A stretch of DNA of 4,221 nucleotides from a phage, in the sequence record NC_138367.1, one strand, 5' to 3'. Position 1 is the stretch's first letter. Each line of letters opens with the position of its first letter. The translations under genes and the position numbers were made by a program. This document shows, in pieces, positions 23 to 4,125 of the stretch. The notes beneath the pieces are model-generated. The model did no database searches and had not been told where the DNA came from. It saw only the letters and a list, made by a program, of their open reading frames with translations.

Positions 23-53
23 ACCTCACACAGCAGTATTTCACTGAGTATGA

Positions 54-58
54 GAGGA
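54..58 (+). promoter_or_regulatory. Shine-Dalgarno element for A2 (GAGGA)
   Basis: GAGGA at 54..58 lies 3 nt upstream of the AUG at 62..64. An in-frame AUG at 50..52 sits upstream of this SD and so has no ribosome-binding site of its own. Confidence 0.6.
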
Positions 59-61
59 CAT

Positions 62-1324
62 ATGCCTAAATTACCACGTGGTCTGCGTTTCGGAGCCGAT
101 AATGAAATTCTTAATGATTTTCAAGAGCTCTGGTTTCCAGATCTCTTTATCGAATCTTCCGACACGCATCCGTGGTACACACTGAAAGGTCGTGTGTTGA
201 ATGCCCATCTTGATGATCGTCTACCTAATGTAGGCGGTCGTCAGATCAGGCGTACTCCACATCGTGCTACTGTTCCGATTGCCTCTTCAGGCCTTCGTCC
301 GGTAACAACCGTTCAGTATGATCCCACAGCACTATCGTTCTTATTGAACGCTCGTGTTGATTGGGATTTCGGTAATGGCGATAGTGCGAACCTTGTCATT
401 AATGACTTTTTGTTTCGTACTTTCGCGCCTAAGGAGTTCGATTTCTCGAATTCCTTAGTTCCTCGTTATACTCAGGCCTTCTCCGCTTTTAATGCCAAGT
501 ATGGCACTATGATCGGCGAAGGGCTCGAGACTATAAAATATCTCGGGCTTTTACTGCGCAGACTGCGTGAGGGTTACCGCGCTGTTAAGCGTGGCGATTT
601 ACGTGCTCTTCGTAGGGTTATCCAGTCCTACCATAAGGGTAAGTGGAAACCAACTACTGCTGGTAATCTCTGGCTTGAATTCCGTTATGGTCTTATGCCT
701 CTCTTCTATGACATCAAAGACGTCATGTTAGACTGGCAGAAGCGCCATGATAGGATTCAACGCCTCCTTCGGTTTTCGGTTGGTCACGGTGAGGATTATG
801 TTGTCAAATTCGACAGCTTATATCCAGCCGTTTCTTACTTTAAACTAAGAGGGGAGATTACACTCGAACGCCGTCATCGTCATGGTATATCTTACGCTAA
901 TCGCGAGGGATATGCTGTTTTCGATAACGGTTCCCTTCGGCCTGTGTCCGATTGGAAGGAACTTGCCACTGCATTCATCAATCCTCATGAAGTTGCATGG
1001 GAGTTAACTCCCTACAGCTTCGTTGTTGATTGGTTTTTGAATGTCGGTGACATACTTGCTCAGCAGGGTCAGCTATATCATAATATCGATATTGTAGACG
1101 GTTTTGACAGACGTGACATTCGACTCAAATCTTTCACTATAAAAGGTGAACGAAATGGGCGACCTGTTAACGTTTCTGCCGACCTGTCTGCTGTCGATTC
1201 ATTTTACAGCCGACTCCATACGACCAAGCTTCCGTTCGCTACACTCGATCTCGATACTACCTTTAGTTCGTATAAACACGTTCTTGATAGTATCTTTTTA
1301 TTAACCCAACGCATTAAGCGTTGA
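62..1324 (+). CDS. A2: A2 maturation protein (attachment to F-pilus; in Qbeta-type phages also the lysis protein, inhibiting MurA)
   Basis: ORF 50..1324 in frame 2. The start is placed at AUG 62 (MPKLPRGLRFGADNEIL...) because it follows the SD. This gives 1263 nt = 420 aa plus UGA stop at 1322..1324, the size and N-terminus I recall for Qbeta A2. It is the first gene of the genome, as in all leviviruses. Confidence 0.9.
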   Translation: MPKLPRGLRFGADNEILNDFQELWFPDLFIESSDTHPWYTLKGRVLNAHLDDRLPNVGGRQIRRTPHRATVPIASSGLRPVTTVQYDPTALSFLLNARVDWDFGNGDSANLVINDFLFRTFAPKEFDFSNSLVPRYTQAFSAFNAKYGTMIGEGLETIKYLGLLLRRLREGYRAVKRGDLRALRRVIQSYHKGKWKPTTAGNLWLEFRYGLMPLFYDIKDVMLDWQKRHDRIQRLLRFSVGHGEDYVVKFDSLYPAVSYFKLRGEITLERRHRHGISYANREGYAVFDNGSLRPVSDWKELATAFINPHEVAWELTPYSFVVDWFLNVGDILAQQGQLYHNIDIVDGFDRRDIRLKSFTIKGERNGRPVNVSADLSAVDSFYSRLHTTKLPFATLDLDTTFSSYKHVLDSIFLLTQRIKR

Positions 1325-1350
1325 AACTTTGGGTCAATTTGATCATGGCA
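1250..1350 (+). promoter_or_regulatory. Approximate S-site (replicase/S1 binding region just upstream of and overlapping the coat start), placed by positional homology
   Basis: Established knowledge for Qbeta: an internal replicase/S1 binding site lies immediately 5' of the coat initiation codon. Coordinates are transferred from memory and not derivable from this sequence alone. Confidence 0.35.
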
Positions 1351-1746
1351 AAATTAGAGACTGTTACTTTAAGTAACATCGGGAAAGATGGAAAACAAAC
1401 TCTGGTCCTCAATCCGCGTGGGGTAAATCCCACTAACGGTGTTGCCGCGCTTTCACAAGCGGGTGCAGTTCCTGCGCTGGAGAAGCGTGTTACCGTTTCG
1501 GTATCACAGCCTTCTCGTAATCGTAAGAACTACAAGGTCCAAGTTAAGATCCAGAACCCGACCGCTTGTACTGCAAACGGTTCTTGTGACCCATCCGTTA
1601 CTCGCCAGGCATATGCTGACGTGACTTTTTCGTTCACGCAGTATAGTACCGATGAGGAACGAGCTTTTGTTCGTACAGAGCTTGTCGCTCTGCTCGCTAG
1701 TCCTCTGTTGATTGATGCTATCGATCAGCTGAACCCAGCGTATTGA
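1345..1746 (+). CDS. cp: Major coat (capsid) protein
   Basis: AUG at 1345 (MAKLETVTLSNIGKDGKQTLVLNPRGVNPTNGVA...) to UGA at 1744..1746 is 402 nt = 133 aa, matching the levivirus coat protein in size and sequence. The ORF-track start at 1321 is a UUG overlapping the A2 stop and is not the real start. Confidence 0.92.
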   Translation: MAKLETVTLSNIGKDGKQTLVLNPRGVNPTNGVAALSQAGAVPALEKRVTVSVSQPSRNRKNYKVQVKIQNPTACTANGSCDPSVTRQAYADVTFSFTQYSTDEERAFVRTELVALLASPLLIDAIDQLNPAY

Positions 1747-2337
1747 ACACTGCTCATTGCCGGTGGTGGCTCAGGGTCTAAACCCGATCCGGTTATCATT
1801 CCGGATCCACCGATCGATCCGCCGCCAGGGACAGGTAAATATACTTGTCCTTTCGCAATTTGGTCCCTAGAGGAGGTTTACGAGCCTCCTACTAAGAACC
1901 GACCGTGGCCTATCTATAACGCTATCGAACTCCAGCCTCGCAAGTTTGATGTTGCCCTTAAAGATCTTTTGGGCAATACAAAATGGCGCGACTGGGATTC
2001 ACGGCTTAGTTATACCACGTTTCGCGGTTGCCGTAGCAACGGTTATATTGACCTTGATGCGTCTTATCTTGCTACTGATCAGGCTATGCGTGATCAGAAG
2101 TACGATATTCGCGAAGGCAAGAAACCCGGTGCTTTCGGTAACGTTGAGCGATTCATTTATCTTAAGTCGATAAATGCTTATTGCTCTCTTAGCGATATTG
2201 CGGCCTATCACGCCGATGGTGTGATAGTTGGCTTTTGGCGCGATCCATCTAGTGGTGGTGCCATACCGTTTGACTTCACTAAGTTTGATAAGACTAAATG
2301 TCCTATTCAAGCCGTGATAGTCGTTCCTCGTGCTTAG
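1345..2337 (+). CDS. A1: A1 read-through protein (coat protein with C-terminal extension; minor capsid protein required for infectivity)
   Basis: The coat frame continues through UGA 1744..1746 into ...TLLIAGGGSGSKPDPVIIPDPPIDPPPGTGKYTCPFAIWSLEEVYEPP...AVIVVPRA and ends at tandem stops UAG UAA (2335..2340). Total is 330 sense codons including the read-through codon. The Gly/Pro-rich linker after the coat domain is typical of A1. Confidence 0.85.
1744..1746 (+). other. Leaky UGA stop codon of the coat gene (programmed read-through site, decoded at low frequency by tRNA-Trp)
   Basis: The coat ends in UGA followed by A (UGA-A). The same frame stays open with no stop from 1747 to the UAG at 2335..2337, which I checked codon by codon. 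This is the hallmark of Qbeta-type A1 read-through. Confidence 0.85.
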
Positions 2338-2342
2338 TAACT

Positions 2343-2347
2343 AAGGA
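2343..2347 (+). promoter_or_regulatory. Shine-Dalgarno element for the replicase gene (AAGGA)
   Basis: AAGGA at 2343..2347 lies 8 nt upstream of AUG 2356. The AUG at 2347..2349 overlaps the SD itself and is therefore an unlikely start. Confidence 0.6.
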
Positions 2348-2351
2348 TGAA

Positions 2352-2371
2352 ATGCATGTCTAAGACAGCAT
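2352..2371 (+). promoter_or_regulatory. Coat-protein translational operator hairpin at the replicase start (repressor binding site and packaging signal)
   Basis: Seen in sequence: AUGCAUGUCUAAGACAGCAU forms an 8-bp stem with a single bulged A (position 2356, the A of the start codon) and a 3-nt loop UAA (2361..2363). The replicase AUG (2356..2358) lies inside the 5' arm. This matches the known Qbeta operator architecture of 3-nt loop plus bulged A. Confidence 0.8.
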
Positions 2372-4125
2372 CTTCGCATAACTCTCTTAGCGCACAATTG
2401 CGCCGAGCTGCGAACACAAGAATTGAGGTCGAAGGTAACCTCGCACTTTCCATCGCCAACGATCTACTGTTGGCTTATGGTCAATCGCCATTTAACTCCG
2501 AAGCTGAGTGTATTTCACTCAGTCCGAGATTTGACGGGACCCCGGATCACTTTAGGATAAATTATCTTAAAGCCGAGGTCATGTCGAAGTATGACGATTT
2601 CAGCCTAGGTATTGATACCGAAGCTGCTGCCTGGGAAAAGTTCCTGGCAGCAGAGGCTGAATGTGCTTTAACGAACGCTCGTCTCTATAGGCCTGACTAC
2701 AGTGAGGATTTCAATTTCTCACTGGGCGAGTCATGTATTCACATGGCTCGCAGAAAAATAGTCAAGCTAATAGGAGATGCTCCGTCCGTTGAGGGTATGT
2801 TGCGTCACTGCCGATTTTCTGGCGGTGCCACAACAACGAATAACCGTTCGCACGGCCATCCGTCCTTCAAGTTTGCGCTTCCACAAGCGTGTACGCCTCG
2901 GGCTTTGAAATATGTTTTGGCTCTTAGAGCTTCTACACATTTCGATATCAGGGTTTCTGATATTAGCCCTTTTAATAAAGCAGTTACTGTACCTAAGAAC
3001 AGTAAAACCGATCGTTGTATTGCTATCGAACCCGGCTGGAATATGTTTTTTCAACTAGGCATCGGTGGCATCCTACGCGATCGGTTGCGTTGCTGGGGTA
3101 TCGATCTGAACGATCAGACGATAAATCAGCATCGCGCTCACGAAGGCTCCGTTACTAATAATTTAGCAACGGTTGATCTCTCAGCGGCAAGCGATTCTAT
3201 ATCTCTTGCTCTCTGTGAGCTCTTATTGCCCCCAGGTTGGTTTGAGGTTCTTATGGATCTCAGATCACCAAAAGGGCGGTTGCCTGACGGTAGTGTTGTT
3301 ACCTATGAGAAAATATCCTCGATGGGTAACGGATACACATTCGAGCTTGAGTCGCTTATCTTTGCTTCTCTTGCTCGTTCCGTTTGTGAGATACTGGACT
3401 TAGACTCGTCTGAGGTCACTGTTTACGGAGACGATATTATTTTACCGTCCTGTGCAGTCCCTGCCCTTCGGGAAGTTTTTAAGTATGTTGGTTTTACGAC
3501 CAATACTAAAAAGACTTTCTCCGAGGGGCCGTTCAGAGAGTCGTGCGGTAAGCACTACTATTCTGGCGTAGATGTTACTCCCTTTTACATACGTCACCGT
3601 ATAGTGAATCCTACCGATTTAATATTGGTTTTGAATAACCTATATCGGTGGGCCACGATTGATGGCGTATGGGATCCTAGGGCCCATTCCGTATACCTCA
3701 AGTATCGTAAGTTGCTGCCTAAACAGCTGCAACGTAATACTATACCTGATGGTTACGGTGATGGAGCCCTCGTCGGATCGGTCTTGATCAATCCTTTCGC
3801 GAAAAACCGCGGGTGGATCCGGTACGTACCGGTGATCATAGACCACACAAGGGACCGAGAGCGCGTTGAATCGGGGTCGTATCTTTACGACCTCTTTTCG
3901 CGTTGTTTCTCGGAAGGTAACGATGGGTTGCCTTTAAGGGGTCCGTCGAGTTGCGATTCTGTAGATCTATCTGCCATTGATCAACTTATCTGTAGGAGTA
4001 ATCCTACAAAGATAAGTAGATCTACCGGTAAGTTCGATATACAGTATATCGCGTGCGGTAGCCGTGTTCTGGCACCCTACGGGGTTTTCCAGGGCACGAA
4101 GGTTACATCTCTACACGAGGTATAA
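2356..4125 (+). CDS. rep: RNA-dependent RNA polymerase, replicase beta subunit
   Basis: AUG 2356 (MSKTASSHNSLSAQLRRAANTRIEVEG...) to UAA 4123..4125 is 1770 nt = 589 aa. The catalytic YGDD motif is encoded at 3424..3435 (TAC GGA GAC GAT, in ...SSEVTVYGDDIILPS...). Size and sequence match the Qbeta replicase. Confidence 0.93.
   Translation: MSKTASSHNSLSAQLRRAANTRIEVEGNLALSIANDLLLAYGQSPFNSEAECISLSPRFDGTPDHFRINYLKAEVMSKYDDFSLGIDTEAAAWEKFLAAEAECALTNARLYRPDYSEDFNFSLGESCIHMARRKIVKLIGDAPSVEGMLRHCRFSGGATTTNNRSHGHPSFKFALPQACTPRALKYVLALRASTHFDIRVSDISPFNKAVTVPKNSKTDRCIAIEPGWNMFFQLGIGGILRDRLRCWGIDLNDQTINQHRAHEGSVTNNLATVDLSAASDSISLALCELLLPPGWFEVLMDLRSPKGRLPDGSVVTYEKISSMGNGYTFELESLIFASLARSVCEILDLDSSEVTVYGDDIILPSCAVPALREVFKYVGFTTNTKKTFSEGPFRESCGKHYYSGVDVTPFYIRHRIVNPTDLILVLNNLYRWATIDGVWDPRAHSVYLKYRKLLPKQLQRNTIPDGYGDGALVGSVLINPFAKNRGWIRYVPVIIDHTRDRERVESGSYLYDLFSRCFSEGNDGLPLRGPSSCDSVDLSAIDQLICRSNPTKISRSTGKFDIQYIACGSRVLAPYGVFQGTKVTSLHEV
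2550..2870 (+). promoter_or_regulatory. Approximate M-site (internal replicase binding region within the 5' part of the replicase gene), placed by positional homology
   Basis: Established knowledge for Qbeta: an internal replicase binding site needed for plus-strand template recognition lies in the replicase gene roughly 1.3-1.6 kb from the 3' end. Coordinates are approximate, transferred from memory, and not demonstrated by this sequence alone. Confidence 0.3.

What the first reader, a model, noticed from the sequence alone, without database searches (positions are those of the whole stretch)
62..1324. No separate lysis gene: lysis is expected to be carried by A2 (single-gene lysis via MurA inhibition)
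MS2-type leviviruses encode a small lysis protein overlapping the coat and replicase genes. Qbeta-type genomes lack it and use the maturation protein A2 as a protein antibiotic against MurA. The architecture here (long A2, read-through A1, no short overlapping membrane-protein ORF between coat and replicase with a proper start) fits the Qbeta solution.
Basis: established knowledge. Interest (0 to 1): 0.4.

Follow-up and report, generated by a model that had tools for sequence, protein, structure and literature searches.

The report
Qβ A2 maturation-lysis gene, already known
The window is a complete genome of a natural strain of the RNA phage Qβ, and its 62..1324 gene is the well-studied A2 protein that builds the virion and also kills the host by blocking the cell-wall enzyme MurA, so the finding is correct but is textbook knowledge.

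Summary
The window is a full-length Qβ-type (Qubevirus durum) genome. It is 95.8% identical to Qβ strain TW18 and has the canonical layout: A2 62-1324, coat 1345-1746, read-through A1 1345-2337, replicase 2356-4125. The 62..1324 ORF is real: Pfam Phage_mat-A E=1.6e-137, and 402/420 residues match the lab Qβ A2 whose complex with MurA is solved (PDB 5VM7). The literature places most MurA contacts in residues 30-120. That segment differs at only three conservative positions, each also present in other isolated Qβ-like phages. The minimal lytic fragment 1-180 is 177/180 identical, and the C-terminal residues needed for lysis are kept.

No MS2-L homologue exists. Mechanical alternative-frame ORFs with membrane-like stretches do exist (e.g. 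1946-2173), but their number and length match codon-shuffled controls. They lack Shine-Dalgarno sites, show no synonymous-site constraint and are broken in close relatives.

It is intact here (2429-2560) but broken in 6 of 11 other Qβ-like strains, so selection does not maintain it.

Verdict: interpretation supported, already known, low interest.

The parts
54..57 (+). Shine-Dalgarno GAGG of the A2 gene
   Evidence: Sequence read directly. It is conserved in all 12 Qβ-like genomes aligned. The in-frame ATG at 50 lies upstream of it and is polymorphic among strains.
62..1324 (+). A2 maturation/lysis protein gene (420 codons plus TGA)
   Evidence: ORF. Pfam Phage_mat-A E=1.6e-137. 402/420 identical to lab Qβ A2 and full-length match to PDB 5vlz/5vm7. 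Same coordinates as the annotated A2 in TW18, BZ1, VK and BR12. Annotated 'maturation-lysis protein A2' in FrMerlot and related phages.
149..421 (+). A2 codons 30-120, the N-terminal β-region segment reported to make most MurA contacts
   Evidence: Region definition from Cui et al. 2017 as summarised in PMC12856241. 88/91 residues are identical to lab Qβ. The changes V62I, V69A and A89T are each present in other Qβ-like isolates.
62..601 (+). [quoted passage not shown]
   Evidence: Definition. 177/180 residues identical to lab Qβ.
1302..1324 (+). A2 C-terminal codons 414-420 plus the stop. T415, Q416 and R417 are retained; residue 418 is Ile instead of the lab-strain Val
   Evidence: Deletions reaching R417 abolish lysis, and V418K, Q416P and T415I abolish or reduce it. 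The window keeps T415, Q416 and R417. I418 is shared by all natural Qβ-like isolates compared.
1345..1746 (+). Coat protein gene ending in the leaky UGA (1744-1746)
   Evidence: Pfam Levi_coat E=2.7e-61. Annotation of relatives. Stop codon read.
1345..2337 (+). A1 read-through protein (coat plus read-through domain)
   Evidence: Pfam Read-through E=2e-94 for 1750-2334. TAG TAA at 2335-2340. One extra codon relative to TW18 and lab Qβ at about 1795.
2356..4125 (+). Replicase β-subunit gene
   Evidence: Pfam RNA_replicase_B E=4.7e-216. The ATG at 2356 gives MSKTASS..., as in the relatives.
2429..2560 (+). Cryptic +1-frame ORF near the replicase start (43 codons plus TAA). A shift after GAG of GAGGTCG (2425-2431) would give a 67-aa product. 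It is the equivalent of the cryptic lysis gene of Nishihara et al. 2004
   Evidence: Literature. Frame and length computed. Open here and in FrHibiscus, FrMerlot, FrBurgundy and lab Qβ. Closed in TW18, GIII_C, FrSangria, BZ1, VK and BR12. The UUG of the lab strain is UCG here.
1946..2173 (+). Alternative-frame hydrophobic ORF inside the A1 read-through region (75 codons from TTG, 74 from ATG 1949). Judged a by-product of base composition, not a gene
   Evidence: Broken in TW18, M11, MX1, SP, FI and NL95. Third-position variability is 0.47 against 0.37 for the whole domain. Within the codon-shuffle null. No Pfam or PHROG match.

Best explanation
The 62..1324 ORF encodes A2 of a natural Qβ strain. 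A2 is a dual-function protein: one copy per virion binds the genomic RNA and the F-pilus, and the same protein acts as the phage's single-gene lysis protein. As A2 accumulates late in infection, its exposed N-terminal β-region binds the closed, UDP-GlcNAc-liganded form of E. coli MurA. This blocks the first committed step of peptidoglycan precursor synthesis, so growing cells lyse at the septum as they would under a cell-wall antibiotic. No separate lysis gene is needed or credibly present.

Shown here: the identity and integrity of the gene, near-identity of the reported MurA-binding and lysis-essential segments, and the lack of any conserved embedded ORF. Inferred from the literature on lab Qβ: MurA binding and lysis by this particular variant.
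For: The genome is 95.8% identical to Qβ TW18 over its full length and has the same four-gene layout. A2 matches Pfam Phage_mat-A at E=1.6e-137. It is 402/420 identical to the A2 chain of PDB 5vlz/5vm7, the latter being the MurA-A2 complex.

In residues 30-120, which make most MurA contacts, only V62I, V69A and A89T differ, and each occurs in other isolated Qβ-like phages. Residues 1-180, the minimal lytic fragment, are 177/180 identical. T415, Q416 and R417, which are needed for lysis, are retained. Fifteen of the 18 differences from lab Qβ are shared with other Qβ-like isolates or more distant relatives. A2 is under purifying selection: 13% of its amino-acid sites vary among Qβ-like strains, against 43% of its third codon positions.

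Literature accessed here states that A2 expression alone lyses cells and that A2 inhibits MurA.

For the absence of another gene: MS2 L finds nothing by tblastn (best E=0.29). TM-like alternative-frame ORFs number 5 against 5.04 expected in codon shuffles, and the longest is 75 codons against 99 expected. They lie in the frame where T-rich third positions (36-46% T) become second codon positions. They have no SD, are not conserved and match no family.
Against: No functional assay was possible, so lysis and MurA binding by this variant rest on 95.7% identity.

Three residues (N252S, A258S, K263R) are unique to the window. They flank position 257, where the substitution U830C changes the latent period in lab Qβ, so lysis timing might differ quantitatively. 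I could not read the atomic contact list of 5VM7, because Cui et al. 2017 is not held. The '30-120' definition is therefore second-hand.

A cryptic +1 lysis frame is intact in this strain. Kajitani et al. 2026 also report an infectious mutant (V418K) whose free A2 does not lyse, which leaves some room for A2-independent release.
Confidence: 0.93

Rival explanations
1. A second lysis route contributes. Ribosomes that start on the replicase gene shift +1 after GAG (2425-2427), or start at TTG 2423. They then make a basic 67-aa (or 45-aa) peptide from the +1 frame 2429-2560, which lyses by a MurA-independent mechanism, as reported for a frameshift mutant of Qβ cDNA.
For: Nishihara et al. 2004, as summarised in PMC12856241. 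The frame is open in the window with exactly the expected length: 24+43 codons and TAA at 2558-2560. It is in the same +1 frame relative to the replicase as MS2 L. Kajitani et al. 2026 invoke it to explain particle release without A2 function.
Against: Lysis was shown only for an engineered or mutant single-base deletion. By my own recollection of the 2004 abstract, expression in wild type needs a hypothetical frameshift. The lab-strain site GAGGUUG is GAGGUCG here, so the UUG restart codon is lost. There is no SD before TTG 2423. The frame is closed in 6 of 11 other Qβ-like strains: UAG as the first codon in TW18, GIII_C and FrSangria, and a stop at ORF codon 15 in BZ1, VK and BR12. It is also closed in MX1, FI and NL95. 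The region shows no reduced synonymous variability (0.27-0.40 against a gene mean of 0.35). The peptide is not hydrophobic (KD19 maximum 0.55) and matches no family significantly.
Confidence: 0.04
2. An embedded membrane-protein Sgl of recent de novo origin, for example the 74-codon ATG ORF 1949-2173 in the A1 read-through region or ATG 2912-3058 in the replicase, is the real or an auxiliary lysis gene, as found for many leviviruses.
For: These ORFs exist and have TM-like stretches, with KD19 maxima of 2.65 and 2.33. Chamakura et al. 2020 show that such embedded ORFs often are functional Sgls in other ssRNA phages. ORF 1946-2173 is open in 10 of 11 other Qβ-like strains.
Against: Their number, length and hydrophobicity are what codon shuffling gives: 5 against 5.04 expected, P=0.62; longest 75 against 99, P=0.77; maximum KD P=0.19. 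No SD is present. ORF 1946-2173 is interrupted in TW18, the closest relative, and in M11, MX1, SP, FI and NL95. ORF 2912-3058 has a stop at codon 3 in 6 Qβ-like strains including lab Qβ. Synonymous sites under these ORFs vary as much as or more than elsewhere. No family matches were found. For lab Qβ the literature attributes lysis to A2 alone.
Confidence: 0.02
3. A2 of this strain is a weak MurA inhibitor, and the phage behaves as a poorly lytic, carrier-state phage like the original isolate 'Q'.
For: The preprint 10.1101/2023.10.16.562596 notes that the original Q isolate was chronic, and that modern Qβ probably gained affinity for MurA. The window has 18 substitutions relative to lab Qβ, three of them unique.
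Against: All three changes in the reported contact segment, and V418I, are shared with phages isolated on E. coli (TW18, BZ1, VK and BR12, plus the Fr* series on MG1655 + F912). The unique changes are conservative (N to S, A to S, K to R) and sit in a patch that also varies among relatives.
Confidence: 0.03

Closest known systems
A2 maturation/lysis protein of laboratory Qβ (PDB 5VLZ, 5VM7, 7LHD, 5MNT; a type I single-gene lysis protein that inhibits MurA)
   Same: Same length (420 aa), same genome position and 402/420 identical residues. Reported MurA-contact segment 88/91 identical, minimal lytic fragment 177/180 identical, and C-terminal lysis-essential residues retained.
   Different: 18 substitutions. 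Fifteen are shared with other Qβ-like isolates or more distant relatives. N252S, A258S and K263R are unique to the window. I418 replaces V418, as in all natural isolates compared.
Natural Qβ strains TW18, GIII_C, and FrHibiscus/FrMerlot/FrBurgundy/FrSangria (Qubevirus durum)
   Same: 95-96% nucleotide identity over the full genome, identical gene order, and A2 96-97% identical. The Fr* records annotate the gene as 'maturation-lysis protein A2'.
   Different: This is a distinct strain: no record in the phage collection exceeds 95.8% identity. It has one extra codon in the A1 linker relative to TW18. The cryptic +1 frame is open here but closed in TW18, GIII_C and FrSangria.
MS2 L (type II Sgl; 75-codon gene overlapping the coat end and replicase start in the +1 frame)
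   Same: Both phages lyse with a single gene product. The Qβ cryptic frame at 2429-2560 is in the same +1 frame relative to the replicase as L.
   Different: No sequence similarity to L anywhere in the window (best tblastn E=0.29). No SD-led ORF spans the A1/replicase junction; only a 21-codon hydrophilic ORF lies at 2298-2363. L does not inhibit peptidoglycan synthesis, whereas A2 does.
[quoted passage not shown] 2004, Genes Cells 9:877)
   Same: Same position and length in the window: a shift at replicase nucleotide 73 (window 2428), then 43 codons, then the stop at 2558-2560.
   Different: The site is GAGGUCG rather than GAGGUUG. The peptide differs from the lab strain's at several positions. 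There is no evidence of natural expression, and the frame is not conserved among strains.
A-proteins of MX1/M11 and of the group IV phages SP, FI and NL95
   Same: Same family and gene position. Several records annotate them as involved in maturation and bacterial lysis.
   Different: Only 65-68% (MX1, M11) and 48-49% (SP, FI, NL95) identical overall. The 30-120 segment is the most divergent part, at 52-53% and 27-35%. MurA inhibition cannot simply be extrapolated to them, but that caveat does not apply to the window.

Membership tests
Qβ A2 maturation/lysis protein (MurA-inhibiting type I Sgl) | Levivirus maturation-protein fold/family (Pfam PF03863 Phage_mat-A), encoded as the first gene of the genome | tested here: met
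   E=1.6e-137, 459.5 bits, residues 36-420. First ORF, 62-1324.
Qβ A2 maturation/lysis protein (MurA-inhibiting type I Sgl) | Close, full-length sequence relationship to the A2 shown experimentally to lyse and solved in complex with MurA | tested here: met
   402/420 identical, no gaps, E=6.6e-283 to 5vlz/5vm7/7lhd.
Qβ A2 maturation/lysis protein (MurA-inhibiting type I Sgl) | Conservation of the β-region segment (residues 30-120) that makes most MurA contacts, and of the minimal lytic fragment 1-180 | tested here: met
   88/91 and 177/180 identical. The three changes are shared with other isolates. The residue-level contact list of 5VM7 could not be consulted.
Qβ A2 maturation/lysis protein (MurA-inhibiting type I Sgl) | Intact C-terminal helix residues required for lysis (up to R417; no Q416P, T415I or V418K) | tested here: met
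   T415, Q416 and R417 are present. Residue 418 is Ile, the natural-isolate majority; that substitution itself has not been tested.
Qβ A2 maturation/lysis protein (MurA-inhibiting type I Sgl) | Expression of the gene alone lyses E. coli; lysis is blocked by MurA resistance alleles or MurA overproduction; direct inhibition of MurA | not testable with these tools
   This needs wet-lab assays. It is established only for lab Qβ in the literature.
Qubevirus (Allolevivirus) genome architecture | Four products: A2, coat, A1 by read-through of a leaky UGA, and replicase; no annotated lysis cistron | tested here: met
   Pfam Levi_coat, Read-through and RNA_replicase_B. UGA at 1744-1746 and an in-frame extension to 2337. 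Same layout in 16 relatives.
MS2-type L lysis gene (type II Sgl) | Short ORF with a C-terminal hydrophobic domain that overlaps the coat end and replicase start, with sequence similarity to L | tested here: not met
   tblastn of MS2 L against the window gives a best E of 0.29 over 17 aa on the minus strand. The only ORF crossing the A1/replicase junction is a 21-codon hydrophilic one.
Embedded de novo Sgl (Chamakura et al. 2020 criteria: ORF of at least 25 codons with a TMD in an alternative frame) | An ORF with a TMD is present | tested here: met
   Five + strand alternative-frame ORFs have a KD19 maximum of at least 1.6, e.g. 1946-2173 and 2912-3058.
Embedded de novo Sgl (Chamakura et al. 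2020 criteria: ORF of at least 25 codons with a TMD in an alternative frame) | Evidence beyond chance: excess over a composition null, conservation of the open frame, reduced synonymous variation in the host gene, a translation start signal | tested here: not met
   Codon-shuffle P values are 0.19-0.87. The frames are broken in close relatives. Third-position variability is not reduced. No SD is present.
Cryptic +1 lysis gene of the Qβ replicase (Nishihara et al. 2004) | Open +1 frame of 43 codons starting at replicase nucleotide 74 | tested here: met
   2429-2557 is open, with TAA at 2558-2560.
Cryptic +1 lysis gene of the Qβ replicase (Nishihara et al. 2004) | Maintenance across natural strains, and the GAGGUUG site with its UUG restart codon | tested here: not met
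   The frame is closed in 6 of 11 other Qβ-like strains and in MX1, FI and NL95. The site here is GAGGUCG.

The most novel reading that the evidence does not exclude
This strain, unlike its closest relative TW18, keeps the cryptic +1 frame at 2429-2560 open. It could express that frame at a low level, by +1 frameshifting on GAG-GUC-G or by initiation at UUG 2423, as a MurA-independent back-up lysis factor. If so, some natural Qβ lineages would carry two lysis functions, and the frame would be a living intermediate between the Qβ and MS2 lysis strategies.
Probability: 0.04. Interest if true: 0.5.

Novelty: already known. Interest (0 to 1): 0.08.

Why it matters
It matters little beyond correct annotation. 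A2 as a 'protein antibiotic' against MurA has been established for Qβ since 1983-2001 and was visualised structurally in 2017, and this window is simply another natural Qβ strain with a near-identical A2. The comparison does yield two modest points. The reported cryptic +1 lysis frame in the replicase gene is open in only about half of natural Qβ-like strains, which argues against a maintained function. And the segment of A2 that contacts MurA is the most divergent part of the protein between Qβ and the group IV phages, so MurA inhibition by those phages should not be assumed.

Tried and rejected
1. I tried to obtain the primary papers with residue-level detail: Cui et al. 2017 (PMC5676892), Reed et al. 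2012 (PMC4631118 and DOI) and 2013 (PMC3709820 and DOI), and Nishihara et al. 2004 (DOI). None is held. The MurA-contact region and the cryptic gene are therefore cited second-hand from PMC12856241. A search for 'L138Q' found nothing.

2. I looked for the window's provenance with an exact 36-mer in IMG/VR and found no match.

3. An Rfam scan of the window found nothing at gathering thresholds.

4. I scanned five alternative-frame peptides against Pfam and PHROGs. Nothing was significant (best E=0.042 to an unannotated PHROG for the 67-aa product).

5. I considered the in-frame ATG at 50 as the A2 start and rejected it. It lies upstream of the SD and is A rather than G in lab Qβ, FrMerlot, BZ1, BR12 and FrSangria.

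6. I considered the 21-codon ORF 2298-2363, which crosses the A1/replicase junction and is open in all Qβ-like strains, and rejected it. It is hydrophilic, has no SD, and sits in the region with the lowest synonymous variability, so its conservation is a by-product.

7. A solved structure at 95.7% identity already exists, and those searches could not change the verdict.
Full report
WHAT THE WINDOW IS

The 4221-base window aligns end to end with Qβ genomes. The best match is strain TW18 (FJ483840), at 95.8% identity over 100% of the query. Next come the FrHibiscus, FrBurgundy, FrMerlot and FrSangria isolates, GIII_C, and laboratory Qβ at 94-96%. The annotated relatives all carry four coding sequences in the same order: A2, coat, A1 read-through and replicase.

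In the window the genes are as follows.
- A2 is at 62-1324.
- Coat is at 1345-1746 and ends in UGA.
- A1 is at 1345-2337.
- The replicase is at 2356-4125.

The replicase start is three bases later than in TW18, because this strain has one extra codon in the A1 linker. Pfam confirms each product: Phage_mat-A 1.6e-137, Levi_coat 2.7e-61, Read-through 2e-94 and RNA_replicase_B 4.7e-216.

CHECK OF THE OBSERVATION

The ORF at 62..1324 is exactly as described. ATG 62 is preceded by GAGG at 54-57, the ORF has 420 codons, and TGA is at 1322-1324.

The mechanical ORF list starts at an in-frame ATG at 50. That codon lies upstream of the Shine-Dalgarno sequence and is polymorphic. It reads TATGAGAGG in TW18, VK, GIII_C, FrHibiscus, FrBurgundy and the window, but TATAAGAGG in lab Qβ, FrMerlot, BZ1, BR12 and FrSangria. 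So 62 is the start, as annotated in the relatives.

IS THIS A2 THE SAME PROTEIN THAT LYSES BY MurA INHIBITION?

The product matches the A2 chain of PDB 5vlz/5vm7/7lhd over all 420 residues without gaps (E=6.6e-283). 5VM7 is the MurA-A2 complex. Identity to lab Qβ A2 is 402/420.

The papers I could read say the following.
- Expression of A2 alone lyses cells, and A2 inhibits MurA by binding its closed, UDP-GlcNAc-liganded form.
- Most MurA contacts lie in residues 30-120 of the N-terminal β-region.
- Residues 1-180 form the shortest lytic fragment.
- The C-terminus up to R417 is also needed for lysis by the full-length protein.

The window compares with those regions as follows.
- Residues 30-120 differ from lab Qβ at V62I, V69A and A89T only.
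- Residues 1-180 are 177/180 identical.
- T415, Q416 and R417 are kept.
- Residue 418 is Ile, as in every natural isolate compared; only the lab strain has Val.
- The positions I recall as por sites (L28, D52, E125; my own memory of Bernhardt et al. 2001, not verified here) are wild type.

Fifteen of the 18 differences are shared with other Qβ-like isolates or more distant relatives. Only N252S, A258S and K263R are unique to the window. They are conservative and lie in a patch that also varies in relatives. They flank residue 257, where U830C alters the latent period of lab Qβ, so a quantitative effect on lysis timing cannot be excluded.

A2 is under purifying selection among Qβ-like strains: 13% of amino-acid sites vary, against 43% of third codon positions.

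IS THERE ANOTHER LYSIS GENE?

MS2 L, taken from NC_001417, has no similarity anywhere in the window (best tblastn E=0.29 over 17 residues on the minus strand). The only ORF crossing the A1/replicase junction is a 21-codon hydrophilic one at 2298-2363.

The + strand holds 17 alternative-frame ORFs of at least 25 codons, and five have a TM-like stretch. The most striking is 1946-2173 inside the A1 read-through region. It has 75 codons from TTG (ATG at 1949) and a KD19 maximum of 2.65. I tested these ORFs in four ways.

1. Codon shuffling. In 1000 codon-order shuffles of the three genes, the expected number of TM-like ORFs is 5.04 (observed 5, P=0.62). The expected longest is 99 codons (observed 75, P=0.77). 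The maximum hydrophobicity is also unremarkable (P=0.19). All the hydrophobic ORFs lie in the frame where the third codon positions of the main genes (36-46% T) become second positions. That alone yields Phe, Leu, Ile and Val-rich peptides.

2. Start signals. None has a Shine-Dalgarno motif upstream of its first start codon.

3. Conservation. ORF 1946-2173 carries a stop at codon 21 in TW18, the closest relative, and is broken in M11, MX1, SP, FI and NL95. ORF 2912-3058 has a stop at codon 3 in six Qβ-like strains, including lab Qβ.

4. Synonymous variation. Third-position variability under 1949-2173 is 0.47, against 0.37 for the whole read-through domain. No overlapping constraint is visible.

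No peptide matches Pfam or PHROGs. These ORFs are by-products of base composition.

THE PUBLISHED CRYPTIC LYSIS FRAME

Nishihara et al. [quoted passage not shown] It encodes a 67-aa product made when one G is skipped after GAG in GAGGUUG, and it lyses by a mechanism distinct from A2.

In the window the site is GAGGTCG at 2425-2431. Twenty-four replicase codons (2356-2427) plus 43 +1-frame codons (2429-2557) give exactly 67 residues, ending at TAA 2558-2560. So the frame is intact here. It is also in the same +1 frame relative to the replicase as MS2 L.

Several observations argue against function.
- The third base of the Val codon is free to vary (T, C or A). With A, as in TW18, GIII_C and FrSangria, the first +1 codon is UAG.
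- BZ1, VK and BR12 have a stop at ORF codon 15.
- MX1, FI and NL95 are also closed.
- The frame is therefore open in only 5 of the 11 other Qβ-like genomes, two of which are lab Qβ records.
- The UUG restart codon of the lab strain is UCG here.
- TTG 2423 has no SD.
- Synonymous variability across the frame is ordinary.
- The peptide is basic but not hydrophobic.

I conclude that it is a latent reading frame, not a maintained gene. It still deserves mention as the one experimentally documented exception to 'Qβ has no other lysis ORF'.

MECHANISM

Shown here:
- The gene is intact and under purifying selection.
- It is almost identical to the experimentally characterised A2 in every segment reported to matter for MurA binding and lysis.
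- No other credible lysis gene exists.

Inferred from established work on lab Qβ: A2 accumulates late in infection. Its exposed β-region binds the closed MurA·UDP-GlcNAc complex. Peptidoglycan precursor synthesis stops, and cells lyse at the septum.

I put 0.93 on this. About 0.04 goes to a contribution from the cryptic +1 frame, 0.02 to an embedded TM ORF and 0.03 to a weakly lytic A2 variant. These are separate estimates that can overlap, so they are not meant to sum to one.

COMPARISON AND NOVELTY

The protein is a member of the Qβ A2 family by every sequence-level criterion I could test. The functional criteria cannot be tested with these tools. Against MS2 L it fails both similarity and architecture.

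The finding is correct but already known: Qβ A2 is the textbook 'protein antibiotic'. The window is a previously uncatalogued strain in the collections searched (no record above 95.8% identity; no exact match in IMG/VR). That is ordinary strain diversity. Interest is low (0.08).

WHAT LED NOWHERE

- The primary papers were not held.
- The L138Q literature search was empty.
- Rfam found nothing.
- The IMG/VR exact search found nothing.
- The family scans of alternative-frame peptides found nothing.

Noticed in passing
window 2425-2560: The cryptic +1 lysis frame reported by Nishihara et al. 2004 is intact in this strain (43 codons after the shift site, TAA at 2558-2560). It is closed in 6 of 11 other Qβ-like genomes, and the lab-strain GAGGUUG is GAGGUCG here. 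The pattern argues that selection does not maintain the frame.
   Followed up: yes
window 50-64: An in-frame ATG lies 12 nt upstream of the A2 start (TATGAGAGGACATATG). It is polymorphic among natural strains (G in TW18, VK, GIII_C, FrHibiscus and FrBurgundy; A in lab Qβ, FrMerlot, BZ1, BR12 and FrSangria). It overlaps the purine-rich stretch (GAGAGGA) that contains the SD, so it might slightly alter A2 translation efficiency, which is known to set lysis timing.
   Followed up: partly
window 1785-1800: There is a length-polymorphism hot spot in the linker at the start of the A1 read-through domain. Relative to lab Qβ, strains carry 0 to 3 extra codons (0 in TW18; 1 in the window and FrSangria; 2 in GIII_C; 3 in FrMerlot, FrHibiscus and FrBurgundy).
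   Followed up: partly
window 149-421 (A2 residues 30-120), compared with L004-L006, L013, L014: The segment of A2 reported to contact MurA is the most divergent part of the protein between Qβ and its relatives. Identity is 52-53% to M11 and MX1 and 27-35% to SP, FI and NL95, against 65-68% and 48-49% overall. MurA inhibition by group IV A-proteins, which some records annotate as 'bacterial lysis', cannot be assumed from homology.
   Followed up: partly
window 815-850 (A2 residues 252, 258, 263): The only three residues unique to this strain's A2 (N252S, A258S, K263R) cluster within 12 residues. They flank position 257, where U830C changes the latent period in lab Qβ (PMC10248866).
   Followed up: no
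L009 (LC710219) 1335-1736; MS2 RefSeq L017 130-1311; phrog_4286: Annotation errors in public records. LC710219 labels the coat cistron 'lys: lysis protein A2'. RefSeq MS2 and PHROG 4286 call the maturation protein 'head maturation protease', which it is not.
   Followed up: no
window 2298-2363: A 21-codon ATG ORF crosses the A1 stop and the replicase start. It is open in all 12 Qβ-like genomes, in M11 and in FI. It is hydrophilic, lacks an SD, and sits in the stretch with the lowest synonymous variability (0.13-0.23), presumably because of the replicase RBS and coat-operator RNA structure rather than coding.
   Followed up: partly
window 62-150 and 2353-2400: Third-codon-position variability among Qβ-like strains drops to 0.13-0.17 at the starts of A2, coat and replicase, against gene means of 0.25-0.43. 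This is consistent with RNA-structure constraints on the translation-initiation regions.
   Followed up: no
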